From a virus: a DNA stretch of 64,000 bases. Made by a program: the position numbers. The stretch lies in UHGV virus genome UHGV-1366603. One strand, given 5' to 3'. Shown here piece by piece: positions 54,001-64,000 of the stretch. How positions within the stretch are numbered: position 1 is the stretch's first letter; each line of letters opens with the position of its first letter.

Positions 54001-57000
54001 ATGCGTACAGCCGTTTGAGCACGTCCAGCTACAACTACCTCCGCAGTCTAACCGGTTTGGCGTCCAACCCGAAAATGTATCGGCTGCATTATGTGCTTTC
54101 GACGCAACTTGCGGATCAACACGTGGGCCAGTTGCCATTTGGTTCTCTACGTTGGTGATTCGGTCACGTACGTTTTTAACACTGATCGCCATCACGTATC
54201 CTTAAAATAAAAAAGAATGGAGGACTACGTCCATAAACATAGTTCCTCCTGTAATTAAATTATTTTGTACCCGCTTCCGCCTGTACGTCATCACGAGACG
54301 TCAGGTTAGCGTTAACGTGTACTGGGGCCTGAACCACACCACCGTATCTCTTGTGGAGATAACCGCTGTGCGGGTTATCTGCCGCGATGTGGTTTTGTAG
54401 GTTCTGGTTCGCTTGACTGATTGCGTTCGTGTTATTGTTAACTTGCTGTTTAAGCGCATCCAGGTTCTGTTGTACCTGATCGATTTTCTGATCGGTTTCT
54501 TGACCCTGTTGCTCTAACGCGGCAACACGCTGAATAACCTGATTCAGTTTTGTGTTTAAATCGTTGATGCTCTTTTGCAGTTGTAACACTAACGAGTTCA
54601 GGTTCGCTAACGCTAATGCCATTTTCTGGTAGTTTTGAGCAACCACGTTAAGTTGGTCGTTCCACGCTTCCAGAGAGTTGACAACAGCGTCAATACGCTT
54701 ACCTAAAGCTTCGTCCGCTTTCTTCAGTGCATTGATTTCCGTAATCGTTGCGTCGATAGCAGACTGGACGTCACGGATAAGCGCACGGATTTCAGTTTCC
54801 GTTAACCCGTTAACCTGATGGATATCAAGATGGTGAACGTTACCGGTTGAGTTAATGTGTGCATTTAAAGCGTCTAAGAAGTCATTTTTCAGGCTTTCTA
54901 AAATCGCTTTAATGTTCTCTAACTGTACTGCGTCACCAGAACTAATAGCATCTTTAATACCCGCCAATACGGTAATGATATATTCAAAACCGTAGATGTC
55001 ACCCACGTCTTTATACGTCGGTGCAGACGGGAATGTATCCGGTACGTTACGCAAGTCTTTAAACGCAATCGTACGGTTATCGAGGTTTAATTCAGCAATC
55101 GCCTGTTCGATAGCCACGATGTTCGCAGACTGTGGGCCACCAACGACCTGCGCAGATACTGTAATATCTGTTGGAATCGCTGTGTTAGTGACCACCACCG
55201 CCATAACAATCTCGCGGTTTTTAGTCAGCTTTTCATAAGTCGGGTGTGCAAAAATCAACTCATAATCGGTACCACGTTCGTAGGTTGCATCCGGTCGGTT
55301 AGCAACGCGTAAACGGAACGTGTCCGCAAAGAACGGGCCGTCAGGAAAAGCAAAAGCACGGTTTACTTTACCTGTACCTAACGTAATCTGACGCTCCACA
55401 GCGTTAGACGTTAGCGAGCCCGTTAAATCTAAAGGATATTGATAAACAATGGAGGCCATGGCCACTCTCCTTTATTCGAGACGTCCTTGTCCCGAGTCAT
55501 TAAGATGTAAACATAAGATTGAACTGGAGTTTGTCGATATCGCGAGTTTCTGCCGGATTCACGGCATCGTACGCGGTCGCTACGTAAACGGTTAGCGTGC
55601 CGTTAGCGTAAGACGATTTCACCGGTGGGTTAGTTCCGGTCTGACCATCTCGCACAATGAGTGTAGGTTCACTTGGGAGATTATCAAACTGACCCTTGAC
55701 CGCTTTATACACCAAACCAGATTGCGCAGACAGTTCACTGTCCGTAAAGACAAAGAACGGTGTGTCGATATCTGCCTGTTTAATCGTGGTACCGGTCTCG
55801 ACGTCAATCAACTGTACCGCCCCAAACTTCGTACGATAACTTTCATACTCGTTCTTCGGAATAACGAACGTGACGTGAACGCGAACCTCCTCGGCAGGTT
55901 TAAACCCAGCGTGCTCTTTTTCCAGGTACTGGTTGGCGGTTAACGTTACCGTTTGTTCAGTCATCGTACCACCGGCCTGGTTTATTGCATACCGAGCTTC
56001 AACAATACCGGTTGGTGCAGCAAGTCGCAGTTTCAAAGCACGATTCGCCGTTCCTGGATTACCTGGCACCTGAACGCGCAAACTCAATGCTAGGTAAGCA
56101 TACGTTCCGGTAGTCGGTTTCGTATACGCACCAATCCATTTCATGTTCGCAGACGCTGCCTGCGTGTTTTCAGAAGCAGTGGCTGTCGCAATGTTGGCGG
56201 CTACCGCTTTCTGCCAGAATTGGTCAGCGCAGTTCTCATACGCTACCCTGGCCACGCTCTTATAACCCGAGTAAGTTTCCTGAATTGGTAACTTAGGACG
56301 CGTCGTAATACCAGACAGTGAACCCCATTTTTGACCGTCAACATACCCTTCACCTTTCGTCGCAGACGCCGTAGGTGCTTTAACGGGTTTGTTAACCAGC
56401 GTTAATAGAGGACCGGTCTTTCTGTCAAACGCTGCTGCTACATCGTGTTGGTCGATAATTGCCGCGTGGTCTTCCAGCTCTTTCACACGACCCAAACGTT
56501 TTACTTTGTCGATACTGATATCGGTAATACGGCTGGAATCGGTGGTTACCGTCCCGACGAACAGTCTTGTTGAAGTATCAGCTAACTGCTCCAAACCGAT
56601 ACGGTATTGCGCAGTAGAACCTGACACCTCAGCGTGCACGTAGAACGTTTGGTTAGCGTGATTGGACGGGAACTCGCTGCTTAAATCCACAGACCACGTT
56701 GGAAGTGTGTAACTGCTGCTACCGAAGTCTAACTTGACTTCTTCTGTCAAATACAGAATCCAGCCTTCTGCTGTCTCCACACCGGCAATAATAACAGCCT
56801 GACCTCCGGTTGAGAACGTCGTGTCGTTAACGAACTCTGCGGCTGTATACGCGTTACCTGAACAGAAAACACGGTCAGCTTTAGAGTAAATCAACGCCAT
56901 CTTGTCCCAATTACCGGCACCCATATAGCACCCAGATTCTGGGTTATGTGCAGGGGCCATCTGTCGTAACTGTGACTTACCAGGAACGCGAGACCAACCT

Positions 57001-63000: not shown

Positions 63001-64000
63001 CACCGGGACAGACTGGAACCCCATCAACGGCGGTTCTTCAATACCTGTCCAGTTGATTCCCGTACCGTTACTCACCTTACCCGTAGGCCAGGTCAGTTCA
63101 AGCTGGTTGTTCGGTGAGAACCAGTTAAACATCGGGGTGGTTTGCAGGTCAATCGCACCAGTAACGGTGCTGTCGCCTTTCGTCCCGTCCAGCAAATAGA
63201 AATATTTCAAATCCTGAACGGAGATTGACGTACCCTGGCTATTAAAACGCCAGTCCGCACCTTTCACAGCAGCGAAGTCAGTTACCGTGCCTTCTTTCGC
63301 GTTTGCAATTGCCGCAGCGACCACATCTAAACGTGCTGAAAGCTCTTTTAGGATGTTCGGTACCACTGCACGGTTTTCAACTAAGCCGTTCTGGTTAGTT
63401 GCGTAACGACCAATACCGTAAATCGTCTGCGAGGCTTTATAAATGCCTAACTCTGACCAGTCGTGATGGTGCCCGACGTCTGCTAAACCACTAACCGAAG
63501 CATTCAGTGCGGTCGACAACGGTTTGTCGAGGTCTGCGGTGTTATCCGCTTGCCCTAATCCCAGGTCAGCTTTCGTGATTGTCCTGGAACCGTCGTTCAT
63601 CGGCTTACCGTTAATCATGGTCGTTTTAGTCACGTACCCTGATAAGTCGGTTGAATACGGCGTTAATGATGCAGGCGTTGCAGCAACCCCAACCGTTTCT
63701 GTGCCTTTACCGGTTTTAAGCTTAACAACACCTTTTTCAGCGGTGGACGCTTTCGTTGGGTCGATAGTCCCCACGATAGGATCGGCACGAGAGCCTTTAC
63801 CGGTAAAACTAATCCCGTTACGGCCTTCGATATACACTTTGGAGTCATCAGGATCGCTACCGCCACTCCCGCCAGCATCAGGGTCTTGCTGATACTCCAT
63901 CAGCGCTGTGGTGGTCAACAACGGGTTACCGTTCAGGGTGAGTTTGTTCATCCCTAAAGCGTCGCCGGTTGACTCGATACGTAAGGTGTTTTTACCCGCA

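What the first reader, a model, noticed from the sequence alone, without database searches (positions are those of the whole stretch)
54260..63951. Second arsenal of fibre-like giants on the minus strand sharing a P2 gpH-type N-terminal motif
The 399-aa and 1727-aa proteins share an N-terminal (V/A)(I/F)PP(E/D)GPF(Y/F) block, and the 1057-aa protein carries the Stf/gpH-like GVVKLKTG...AATPASLTP segment. Together with the plus-strand module this phage appears to encode at least five or six fibre/spike-type proteins, an expanded adsorption apparatus typical of broad-host-range phages.
Basis: partly seen in the sequence, partly recalled or inferred. Interest (0 to 1): 0.45.

Follow-up and report, generated by a model that had tools for sequence, protein, structure and literature searches.

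The report
Jumbo-phage baseplate fibre paralogs (phiKZ gp131 family)
These three big minus-strand genes are the already described baseplate-fibre paralogs of SPN3US/phiKZ-type jumbo phages (counterparts of SPN3US gp167, gp168 and gp169), not P2 gpH-type fibres, so the finding is real but ordinary.

Summary
The ORFs are real. The "399-aa" (54260-55459) and 1727-aa (55500-60683) proteins are complete. The "1057-aa" protein is an artefact of the window edge: its frame stays open to base 64000, and it is the C-terminal 1073 residues of a 1393-aa protein.

The window comes from a Seoulvirus/Erskinevirus-like jumbo phage. The locus is syntenic with SPN3US gp170-gp169-gp168-gp167.

The shared P(E/D)GPF(Y/F) block is real. 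It is the signature of a ~200-aa N-terminal domain shared with phiKZ gp131/133/134/135 (profile E 1e-37 to 1e-53). It is not related to P2 gpH: PF12571 and PF03406 are not matched, and shuffles are not exceeded.

Published work already places the orthologs in the SPN3US tail. In phiKZ these N-domains form a hetero-hexameric fibre base docked under gp130.

The most likely reading is that these are subunits of one peripheral baseplate fibre system, with conserved anchors and variable distal beta-propeller and beta-sandwich parts. They are probably not an "arsenal" of independent fibres, and nothing here bears on host range.

Novelty is low: a new member of a known kind.

One side observation: the fibre operon is always followed by Cys-rich CxxxC-repeat peptides and two radical-SAM maturase-like genes. 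These peptide genes are unannotated in the SPN3US record.

The parts
54260..55459 (-). 399-aa virion protein, ortholog of SPN3US gp167 and Asesino gp187. It is the 'short' member of the gp131-like family.
   Evidence: 76-77% identity to SPN3US gp167 and Asesino gp187. Hits phrog_2163 'virion structural protein' at E 1.6e-102. SPN3US gp167 was detected in virions with 25 unique peptides.
54815..55459 (-). gp131-like N-terminal anchor domain of the 399-aa protein (residues 1-215). It contains AFPDGPFF at nt 55328-55351.
   Evidence: A profile of this domain hits phiKZ gp135 (5.8e-53), gp134 (1.3e-51), gp131 (1.5e-43) and gp133 (7.5e-37). A single-sequence search finds 1235 representative clusters, always at the extreme N-terminus of proteins 200-1560 aa long. 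In the AF2 model the beta-domain at residues 10-110 has pLDDT 80-91.
54383..54799 (-). Long alpha-helix / coiled-coil of the 399-aa protein (residues 221-359). It is a candidate contributor to the helical bundle of the fibre base.
   Evidence: AF2 predicts helices 221-248 and 250-359. Only coiled-coil Pfam and NCBIfam hits were found.
55500..60683 (-). 1727-aa virion protein, ortholog of SPN3US gp168 (188 kDa) and Asesino gp188.
   Evidence: 56.6% identity to Asesino gp188 and 49.4% to SPN3US gp168, full length. Hits phrog_7449 at E=0. SPN3US gp168 is a tail protein that is 'expected essential'.
60039..60683 (-). gp131-like N-terminal anchor domain of the 1727-aa protein (approximately residues 1-215). 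It contains VIPPEGPFY at nt 60585-60611.
   Evidence: Residues 15-578 hit phrog_2163 at 1.7e-43. BLAST to the SPN3US gp169 N-terminus gives 1.5e-19, and to phiKZ gp131 residues 40-168 gives 1e-3. V25, P27, P31 and F32 are invariant in 32 homologs.
59049..59621 (-). Fibre-repeat / shaft region of the 1727-aa protein (residues 355-545). It is homologous to residues 52-196 of the third protein's visible part.
   Evidence: BLASTP 3e-06 between the two window proteins. Weak hits to the tail-fibre PHROGs phrog_35419 and phrog_5207. PF12789 'Phage tail repeat like' hits at E 0.016, below its cutoff.
57507..59006 (-). Beta-propeller-rich region of the 1727-aa protein (approximately residues 560-1059; boundaries are approximate).
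56484..56783 (-). Conserved island (residues 1301-1400) shared with the gp170-type paralog.
   Evidence: About 50% mean identity among homologs, against 20-30% in the flanks. phrog_3573 hits at 2.5e-44 and phrog_7557 at 1.1e-34. BLAST to Asesino gp190 residues 765-879 gives 9e-11.
55503..56282 (-). Variable C-terminal beta domain (residues 1468-1727) behind a disordered linker. It is the candidate distal / receptor-contacting part.
   Evidence: The AF2 linker at residues 1397-1465 has pLDDT <50, followed by a beta domain with pLDDT around 80-90. Conservation among homologs is lowest here, 18-31%.
60778..64000 (-). C-terminal 1073 codons of a 1393-aa virion protein, ortholog of SPN3US gp169 and Asesino gp189. 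Its start and N-domain lie beyond the window end.
   Evidence: The frame is open to base 64000. 100% identical to the 1393-aa protein P0302. Aligns from residue 321 of Asesino gp189 and SPN3US gp169. The N-terminus of P0302 and L007 carries 'LDHRPFFEDL' and hits the N-domain profile at 1.9e-23.
63658..63732 (-).
   Evidence: Located. 11/29 identities to the P2 gpH repeat, pairwise E 0.026, reached by 25 of 2000 shuffles. No PF03406 hit at E<=10.

Best explanation
The three genes, plus a fourth just beyond the window end, are the gp131-family paralogs of a Seoulvirus/Erskinevirus-like, phiKZ-related jumbo phage. They are orthologs of SPN3US gp167 (399 aa), gp168 (1727 aa) and gp169 (1393 aa, cut by the window edge).

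Shown:
- Each protein starts with the same ~200-aa N-terminal domain. The P(E/D)GPF(Y/F) block is its signature.
- This domain is homologous to the N-terminal domains of phiKZ gp131, gp133, gp134 and gp135.
- The gene order matches phiKZ gp130-gp135, including a divergently transcribed gp130 homolog in close relatives.

Inferred by homology with the phiKZ cryo-EM structure:
- The N-domains of the paralogs co-assemble into a hetero-oligomeric (hexameric) base, followed by a helical bundle.
- That base docks under the gp130 homolog on the outer rim of the baseplate and forms the peripheral fibres.
- The short 399-aa protein mainly supplies an anchor domain and a ~140-residue helix.
- The giant paralogs carry the distal parts: a fibre-repeat shaft, beta-propeller(s) of lectin/glycosidase type, and a poorly conserved C-terminal beta domain. 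These would contact the cell surface and hold the baseplate on the cell, as T4 short tail fibres do.

They are therefore subunits of one conserved fibre system rather than several independent fibres.
For: Synteny and orthology with SPN3US and Asesino.

N-domain homology:
- Profile from the 399-aa family against phiKZ gp135/134/131/133: E 5.8e-53 to 7.5e-37.
- Against gp169-type proteins: 1e-19 to 3.5e-22. Against gp170-type proteins: 9e-9 to 5e-12.
- The 1727-aa N-terminus hits phrog_2163 at 1.7e-43 and the gp169 N-terminus at 1.5e-19.

Locus architecture:
- A gp130 homolog lies divergently next to the paralogs in the 98%-identical contig L007 (BLASTP to phiKZ gp130, 1.2e-12).

Experimental data on orthologs:
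- SPN3US gp167-171 are virion proteins. gp168-170 are absent from tailless particles. The gp168 gene is expected to be essential, and gp171 is essential.
- phiKZ has 12 peripheral fibres. Each has a base of six gp131-like N-domains plus a six-helix bundle under gp130.

Pattern typical of a receptor-binding protein:
- In the 1727-aa protein, mean identity among 32 homologs is 52-75% in residues 1-550 and 18-30% in residues 1400-1727.
- The N-domain heads proteins with many different C-termini, including Peptidase_S74 and PKD/Ig domains.

Structure predictions:
- AF2 of the 399-aa protein shows a beta N-domain followed by a 140-residue helix.
Against: - No structure or localisation exists for any SPN3US-type member. 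The hetero-hexamer is transferred from phiKZ, where the outer fibre density was itself fitted with AlphaFold models at 4.4-4.6 A.
- The paralog make-up differs. phiKZ has one long and three short members (plus gp132). Here there are three long members and one short, so stoichiometry may not transfer.
- The N-domain of the third protein cannot be seen inside the window.
- SPN3US spectral-count ratios (gp167:168:169:170 = 1.90:1.08:1.41:1.00) are only roughly compatible with a 3:1:1:1 assembly.
Confidence: 0.72

Rival explanations
1. Independent fibres. Each paralog forms its own homo-oligomeric fibre or spike on a different baseplate site, giving several receptor specificities and a broadened host range.
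For: - phiKZ has two classes of fibre attachment site, unit1 and unit2.
- Distant family members end in Peptidase_S74, a domain of homotrimeric fibres and spikes.
- The C-terminal parts of the paralogs differ greatly.
- A separate classical fibre module also exists on the plus strand.
Against: - In phiKZ both attachment sites look alike, and each holds six N-domains assigned to four different paralogs.
- The same paralog set is kept in all relatives, from Erwinia, Salmonella, E. coli and Proteus phages and in metagenomes. It therefore does not track host range.
- No host-range data exist for this phage.
Confidence: 0.18
2. The proteins are members of the P2 gpH / Mu S / lambda Stf tail-fibre family, attached through a gpH-type N-terminal collar domain.
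For: - String resemblance VVIPPE-GPFYRIGLKL versus gpH LVIPPEVGGFWMRELGL (9/17 identities).
- ASTAEKGVVKLKTGKGTETVGVAATPASL versus gpH ATTARKGLVQLSSATNSTSETLAATPKAV (11/29 identities, pairwise E 0.026).
Against: - gpH hits PF12571 at 3.2e-57 and PF03406 at 3.4e-38. The window proteins hit neither at E<=10.
- The N-terminal resemblance is not above shuffles: 530 of 2000 for the 1727-aa protein and 1259 of 2000 for the 399-aa protein.
- The N-domain profile gives no gpH hit at E<=10.
- Foldseek of the 399-aa model finds no P2-type or pyocin fibre and nothing at E<=0.001.
- No gpG/Tfa-type assembly gene follows these genes.
Confidence: 0.03
3. The giant proteins are mainly structural or enzymatic parts of the peripheral baseplate (scaffold or surface-glycan depolymerase) rather than adhesins. 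The true receptor-binding protein would be the plus-strand long tail fibre.
For: - SPN3US authors could only say 'baseplate/tail fiber candidate'.
- The best structural neighbours of the propeller region are glycoside hydrolases, phosphorylases and sialidases as well as lectins.
- The plus-strand 1507-aa protein has clear long-tail-fibre distal-subunit and adhesin homology.
Against: - The N-domain equals the phiKZ fibre-base domain.
- The C-terminal variability is typical of host-contacting parts.
Confidence: 0.15

Closest known systems
Salmonella phage SPN3US gp167, gp168, gp169 (and gp170): 'paralog family C' virion proteins (Ali et al. 2017, PMC5694885; Thomas et al. 2016, PMC5105663)
   Same: - Orthologous, with the same lengths (400/1727/1376 aa against 399/1727/1393).
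- Same order and strand, and the same downstream genes (Cys-rich ORFs, 295-aa protein, two radical SAM genes).
- 76%, 49% and 42% identity respectively.
   Different: - A different phage lineage. The closest isolate is Erwinia phage Asesino at 57% for the 1727-aa protein.
- Near-identical copies occur only in metagenomes and bacterial assemblies.
- gp167 was not assigned to family C by the authors, although its N-domain belongs there.
Pseudomonas phage phiKZ gp131/gp133/gp134/gp135 peripheral tail fibre (Sycheva et al. 2012, PDB 4GBF; structural atlas 2026, PMC13250141)
   Same: - Homologous N-terminal anchor domain (profile E 1e-37 to 1e-53).
- Tandem paralogs next to a divergent gp130 homolog.
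- A helix follows the N-domain.
- A beta-propeller lies in a long member.
   Different: - phiKZ has one long member (771 aa) and three short members (~460 aa). Here there are three giants (about 1400-1727 aa) and one short member.
- No specific similarity to the gp131 C-terminal seven-bladed propeller was detected.
- phiKZ has no Cys-rich/radical-SAM cassette downstream.
P2 gpH / lambda Stf tail fibres (Pfam PF12571, PF03406)
   Same: Both are tail-fibre proteins with a conserved N-terminal attachment part and variable distal part. One 29-residue segment resembles the gpH repeat.
   Different: Neither defining Pfam domain is matched. The N-terminal motif resemblance is at chance level. No adjacent Tfa/gpG chaperone is present.
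T4 short tail fibre gp12 (functional analogue only; from the phiKZ paper's discussion and general knowledge)
   Same: Proposed role: baseplate-attached fibres that fix the baseplate to the cell surface.
   Different: No sequence or fold relation was found. gp12 is a homotrimer.

Membership tests
phiKZ gp131-like fibre family (SPN3US paralog family C) | gp131-like ~200-aa domain at the extreme N-terminus | tested here: met
   - 399-aa protein: profile hits to phiKZ gp135/134/131/133 at 5.8e-53 to 7.5e-37, and direct BLAST to gp135 at 2.5e-13.
- 1727-aa protein: phrog_2163 at 1.7e-43, gp169 N-terminus at 1.5e-19, phiKZ gp131 at 1e-3.
- Third protein: the domain lies outside the window, but it is present in the 100%-identical P0302 and in L007 (profile 1.9e-23).
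phiKZ gp131-like fibre family (SPN3US paralog family C) | Tandem paralog genes next to a divergently transcribed gp130 homolog | tested here: met
   - Three paralogs lie in tandem in the window.
- In the 98%-identical contig L007 and in 'plasmid' NZ_CP173450.1 the order is 420 aa (-) | 1440 | 1400 | 1727 | 399.
- The 420-aa protein against phiKZ gp130 gives BLASTP 1.2e-12.
- The gp130 homolog itself lies beyond base 64000.
phiKZ gp131-like fibre family (SPN3US paralog family C) | Protein is part of the virion tail / baseplate periphery | not testable with these tools
   Known only for orthologs: SPN3US mass spectrometry and the tailless mutant, and phiKZ immuno-gold and cryo-EM.
phiKZ gp131-like fibre family (SPN3US paralog family C) | N-domains form a hetero-hexamer with a six-helix bundle under gp130 | not testable with these tools
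   No multimer prediction is available. The monomer AF2 model of the 399-aa protein shows helices after the N-domain, which is compatible but not a test.
phiKZ gp131-like fibre family (SPN3US paralog family C) | C-terminal seven-bladed propeller like gp131 (PDB 4GBF) | tested here: inconclusive
P2 gpH / Mu S type tail fibre | N-terminal tail-collar fibre domain PF12571 | tested here: not met
   P2 gpH scores 193 bits. The window proteins give no hit at E<=0.1 (whole proteins) or at E<=10 (N-terminal pieces). Shuffle tests are not exceeded. The N-domain profile does not hit gpH.
P2 gpH / lambda Stf type tail fibre | Phage tail fibre repeat PF03406 | tested here: not met
   gpH scores 129 bits with two repeats. 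No hit was found for the 230-aa piece holding GVVKLKTG...AATPASL at E<=10. Only a weak pairwise resemblance exists (E 0.026; 25 of 2000 shuffles).
P2 gpH / lambda Stf type tail fibre | Tail-fibre assembly chaperone (gpG/Tfa) gene immediately downstream | tested here: not met
   Downstream of the 399-aa gene lie Cys-rich ORFs (phrog_6085), phrog_8030 and two radical SAM genes. Adhesin and assembly-type genes are found only in the plus-strand module at 33643-34954.
CXXX-repeat peptide / radical SAM maturase system (TIGR04114 / TIGR04115); side observation | Cys-rich CXXX repeat target peptide | tested here: met
   ORF 53388-53786 scores 20.7 bits against TIGR04114, whose cutoff is 20. This is a marginal pass. 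20-21 Cys residues lie in a CxxxC/CxxC pattern in both 132-aa ORFs.
CXXX-repeat peptide / radical SAM maturase system (TIGR04114 / TIGR04115); side observation | Maturase reaches the TIGR04115 trusted cutoff | tested here: not met
   The 440-aa enzyme has TIGR04115 as its best hit, at 116.9 bits against a cutoff of 350. PapB family is equal-best at 115.9 bits against 340. It is a distant relative only.

The most novel reading that the evidence does not exclude
The fibre genes and the conserved downstream cassette may form one functional unit. The cassette comprises one 61-68-aa 'ISLKNIRDRL...HYxCxGSCSWxCSG' peptide, a variable number of 130-aa CxxxC-repeat proteins, a 295-aa protein and two radical-SAM/SPASM-like enzymes.

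Under this reading the radical-SAM enzymes install thioether-type cross-links in the Cys-rich mini-proteins. These then become part of, or are needed to mature, the peripheral fibres. That would be a RiPP-like modification serving virion structure or adsorption.

A milder version of novelty is that three different giant arms emanate from one hetero-hexameric base, giving a branched, multi-specific fibre.
Probability: 0.1. Interest if true: 0.75.

Novelty: new member of a known kind. Interest (0 to 1): 0.2.

Why it matters
The practical value is in annotation.
- These genes are 'hypothetical protein' in RefSeq copies of this phage lineage and have no Pfam family.
- They can be named as gp131-family peripheral baseplate fibre subunits with defined anchor, shaft and distal regions.
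- That tells anyone engineering host range in Seoul-like jumbo phages, which persist in many Salmonella and E. coli isolates, which segments to swap (the variable residues ~560-1727) and which to keep (the N-terminal ~550).

It does not open a new question about adsorption. The only potentially new biology nearby is the Cys-rich/radical-SAM cassette.

Tried and rejected
- Sequence searches of the PDB with each protein and with profiles found nothing relevant. The PDB copy holds only the gp131 C-domain, 4GBF, so the N-domain could not be matched to a solved structure.
- Pfam and NCBIfam gave nothing for the two giants and only coiled-coil noise for the 399-aa protein.
- Foldseek of the 399-aa model against the PDB gave no hit at E<=0.001. 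The best was a T7 tail chain at E 0.06, which I do not interpret.
- P2 gpH kinship was tested by BLAST, Pfam, profile and shuffles, and rejected.
- The third protein appeared as more than 120 separate near-identical database entries. I therefore checked for a localised hypervariable (DGR-like) region. Substitutions are scattered and only somewhat denser in the C-terminal half, with no hot spot.
- The promoter and terminator scan showed no excess over shuffles.
- A literature search for radical SAM plus Cys-rich proteins in jumbo phages found nothing relevant.
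Full report
**Observation**

The region 54260-64000 holds three long minus-strand ORFs.
- The first is 401 aa from a GTG start, or 399 aa from the ATG at 55459. The ATG version matches the length of all close homologs.
- The second is 1727 aa (55500-60683).
- The third was listed as 1057 aa from an ATG at 63951, but this is not a complete protein.
  - The frame has no stop up to base 64000.
  - The product aligns to positions 337-1389 of the 1392-position profile phrog_8078.
  - Its 1073 visible residues are 100% identical to a 1393-aa protein, P0302.
  - They align from residue 321 of Asesino gp189, SPN3US gp169 and a 1400-aa homolog in contig L007.
  - The '1057-aa protein' is therefore a window-edge artefact.

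The N-terminal block is present in both complete proteins: VIPPEGPFY at nt 60585-60611 and AFPDGPFF at nt 55328-55351. The GVVKLKTG...AATPASLTP string is at 63658-63732.

**What the phage is**

Megablast finds only short 70-75% matches, to Erwinia jumbo phages. At protein level the 1727-aa product is full-length homologous to:
- Erwinia phage Asesino gp188 (56.6%);
- SPN3US and its relatives (about 49%);
- 188 phage records in all.

The locus is syntenic with SPN3US ACQ60_gp096-gp103 and Asesino gp190-gp180. The order is three giant proteins, a 400-aa protein, small ORFs, a 295-aa protein and two radical SAM genes. In the original SPN3US numbering these are gp170, gp169, gp168 and gp167.

**What is already known about the orthologs**

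- Ali et al. 2017 detected gp167 (44.8 kDa), gp168 (188 kDa), gp169 (149 kDa), gp170 (135 kDa) and gp171 in purified SPN3US virions.
- They grouped gp168-170 as 'paralog family C' and called them baseplate/tail-fibre candidates. Their reasons were similarity to phiKZ gp131 and absence from a tailless mutant.
- Thomas et al. 2016 listed gp168 as a tail protein whose gene is expected to be essential. They listed gp171, the phiKZ gp130 homolog, as essential.
- The 2026 cryo-EM atlas of phiKZ shows twelve peripheral fibres. [quoted passage not shown]

**The shared motif is the signature of the gp131-like N-domain**

- Both complete window proteins hit phrog_2163 (E 1.6e-102 and 1.7e-43).
- Their N-termini align better than 1999 of 2000 shuffles.
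  - phiKZ gp135 (5.8e-53), gp134 (1.3e-51), gp131 (1.5e-43) and gp133 (7.5e-37);
  - the gp169-type paralogs (1e-19 to 3.5e-22);
  - the gp170-type paralogs (9e-9 to 5e-12);
  - SPN3US gp168 (2e-5).
- The window's own 1727-aa protein fell below that profile's threshold. It is linked through phrog_2163 and through BLAST to the gp169 N-terminus (1.5e-19 over ~480 residues) and to phiKZ gp131 (1e-3).
- The equivalent strings in relatives are FAAPFFVDSL (gp131), HGGFYTKGL (gp133), HRPFFEGL (gp169) and HAPFYTTSL (gp170).
- A single-sequence search of 1.84 billion representatives with residues 1-215 found 1235 clusters at E<=1e-3. In every case the domain sits at the extreme N-terminus of a protein 200-1560 aa long.
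- Some of these proteins end in Peptidase_S74 or carry PKD/Ig arrays.
- No Pfam family covers the domain; phiKZ gp131 and gp135 themselves have no Pfam hit there.

**The P2 gpH idea fails**

- P2 gpH is covered by PF12571 (residues 1-151), two PF03406 repeats and PF21446.
- The window proteins match none of these at E<=0.1, and their relevant pieces match none at E<=10.
- The string match with gpH residues 78-94 is 9/17 identities at E=4.7. Its alignment score is reached by 530 of 2000 shuffles.
- The N-domain profile does not report gpH.
- The GVVKLKTG segment resembles the gpH repeat weakly: 11/29 identities, pairwise E 0.026, reached by 25 of 2000 shuffles. I regard it as a generic fibre-shaft motif at most.
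- Foldseek of the 399-aa model against the PDB gives nothing at E<=0.001 and no P2-type or pyocin fibre.

**Anatomy**

The 399-aa protein (AF2 with 61 sequences; mean pLDDT 69.5, but 80-91 for residues 10-110):
- a small beta N-domain;
- shorter helices;
- one ~140-residue helix (221-359).

The 1727-aa protein:
- Residues 1-~550 are the best conserved part (52-75% mean identity among 32 homologs).
- Residues 700-1300 are poorly conserved (19-40%).
- Residues 1301-1400 form a conserved island shared with the gp170-type paralog.
- Residues 1400-1727 are the least conserved (18-31%).
- AF2 of residues 560-1727 (52 sequences, mean pLDDT 83.3, pTM 0.64) is almost all-beta. It has a disordered linker at 1397-1465 and a separate C-terminal beta domain.
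- The solved gp131 C-domain (4GBF) is not among the top hits, so I claim only a generic carbohydrate-type propeller.

Residues 355-545 of the 1727-aa protein and residues 52-196 of the third protein's visible part are homologous (E 3e-06). They give weak hits to tail-fibre PHROGs.

**Mechanism**

Shown:
- Family membership and locus architecture. This includes a gp130 homolog divergently adjacent in the 98%-identical contig L007 and in NZ_CP173450.1.
- A conserved anchor with variable distal parts.

From the literature on orthologs:
- Virion and tail location.

Inferred:
- The four N-domains co-assemble into a hetero-oligomeric base under the gp130 homolog.
- The 399-aa protein contributes mainly anchor and helix.
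- The giants provide distal glycan-binding or glycan-cleaving parts.

SPN3US spectral counts per mass (gp167 1.90, gp169 1.41, gp168 1.08, gp170 1.00, portal 0.93) fit low copy numbers, with the short protein perhaps in excess. They cannot fix a stoichiometry.

The paralog make-up is inverted relative to phiKZ: three long and one short here, against one long and three short there. The details may therefore differ.

- 'Fibre-like virion proteins sharing an N-terminal block' is right.
- 'P2 gpH-type' is wrong.
- 'Arsenal typical of broad-host-range phages' is not supported. The set is a conserved core feature of the whole lineage and probably forms one fibre system.
- A separate classical long tail fibre with adhesin and assembly genes does lie on the plus strand.

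**Novelty**

The proteins are new sequences of an already described family. Interest is low.

**Side observations**

1. Cys-rich ORFs and radical-SAM genes follow the fibre genes.
   - Three Cys-rich ORFs lie at 53797-54195, 53388-53786 and about 53179-53385.
   - One reaches the TIGR04114 CXXX-repeat cutoff.
   - The 440-aa radical-SAM enzyme is most similar to CXXX-repeat and PapB-type peptide maturases, though far below their cutoffs.
   - The arrangement persists in relatives down to 40% identity.
   - The three Cys-rich ORFs also exist in SPN3US but are not annotated there; a wrong-frame ORF is annotated instead. Their absence from the virion proteome is therefore uninformative.
2. This phage lineage occurs as ~222-kb contigs or 'plasmids' in many Salmonella, E. 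coli and Enterobacter assemblies. This matches the reported 'persistent virulent' Seoul-like jumbo phages.

Noticed in passing
window 49772-54195 (minus strand): Cys-rich ORFs at 53797-54195, 53388-53786 and ~53179-53385; 299-aa ORF at 52023-52922; radical SAM genes at 51078-52001 and 49772-51094: A RiPP-like cassette lies directly downstream of the fibre genes. Two 132-aa proteins carry 20-21 Cys in CxxxC/CxxC repeats, and there is one short ~68-aa 'ISLKNLRDRL...HYNCNGGCSWSCSG' peptide (all phrog_6085). One of them just reaches the TIGR04114 'Cys-rich repeat' cutoff. The 440-aa radical SAM/SPASM-like enzyme is closest to CXXX-repeat (TIGR04115) and PapB ranthipeptide maturases, but far below their cutoffs. 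The order is conserved in SPN3US, Asesino and relatives down to 40% identity. I found no literature on it.
   Followed up: partly
L001 (SPN3US NC_027402.1) locus coordinates 15500-15892, 15903-16307 and 16323-16529: The model phage SPN3US encodes the same three Cys-rich ORFs (130, 134 and 68 aa), but none is annotated. RefSeq instead annotates a Val/Ala/Arg-rich ORF in another frame (ACQ60_gp100, 15976-16311). Gene callers made the same error on contigs L007 and L008. Published virion proteomics therefore could not have detected these proteins.
   Followed up: yes
whole window; relatives NZ_CP173450.1 (E. coli 98232 'plasmid', 221,873 bp, circular), NZ_CP134650.1 (Enterobacter ludwigii, 222,441 bp) and P0302-P0421: This jumbo-phage lineage appears in many bacterial isolate assemblies. 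More than 120 near-identical copies of the third fibre protein are labelled as Salmonella enterica or E. coli hypothetical proteins on ~220-226-kb contigs. Two complete genomes deposit it as a plasmid, at 93% DNA identity. This matches the 'persistent virulent' Seoul-like jumbo phages reported in bioRxiv 10.1101/2024.12.31.630880.
   Followed up: partly
window 26094-34954 (plus strand): This is a separate classical tail-fibre module. It holds a 1001-aa tail protein (phrog_2871), a 1507-aa protein with many tail-fibre and long-tail-fibre distal-subunit PHROG hits, and then a 260-aa 'host specificity' protein and a 170-aa adhesin/assembly-type protein.
   Followed up: partly
window 60716-60740 (minus strand): An 11-bp GC-rich hairpin (ACCCCTCCCTG TAA TGGGGAGGGGT) lies in the 94-nt gap between the third fibre gene and the 1727-aa gene. 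It has only a weak T-tail. Terminator-like sites overall are not in excess of shuffles.
   Followed up: no
window ~53180-54200 compared with L007: The window and the otherwise 93-96% identical contig L007 cannot be aligned by blastn across the Cys-rich ORFs. They are only 77% identical across the 299-aa and radical-SAM genes. In L007 the short Cys peptide is fused to a 150-aa beta-rich C-terminal part, which is a separate ORF in L008. The cassette is a local hot spot of divergence.
   Followed up: no
window 46755-49809 and L007 21091-23514: Genes next to the cassette include a DUF4376 protein and, in relatives, two DUF7941 proteins. DUF7941 proteins were recently proposed to form a 'fiber cloud' on phage Goslar. 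I did not examine this in the window.
   Followed up: no
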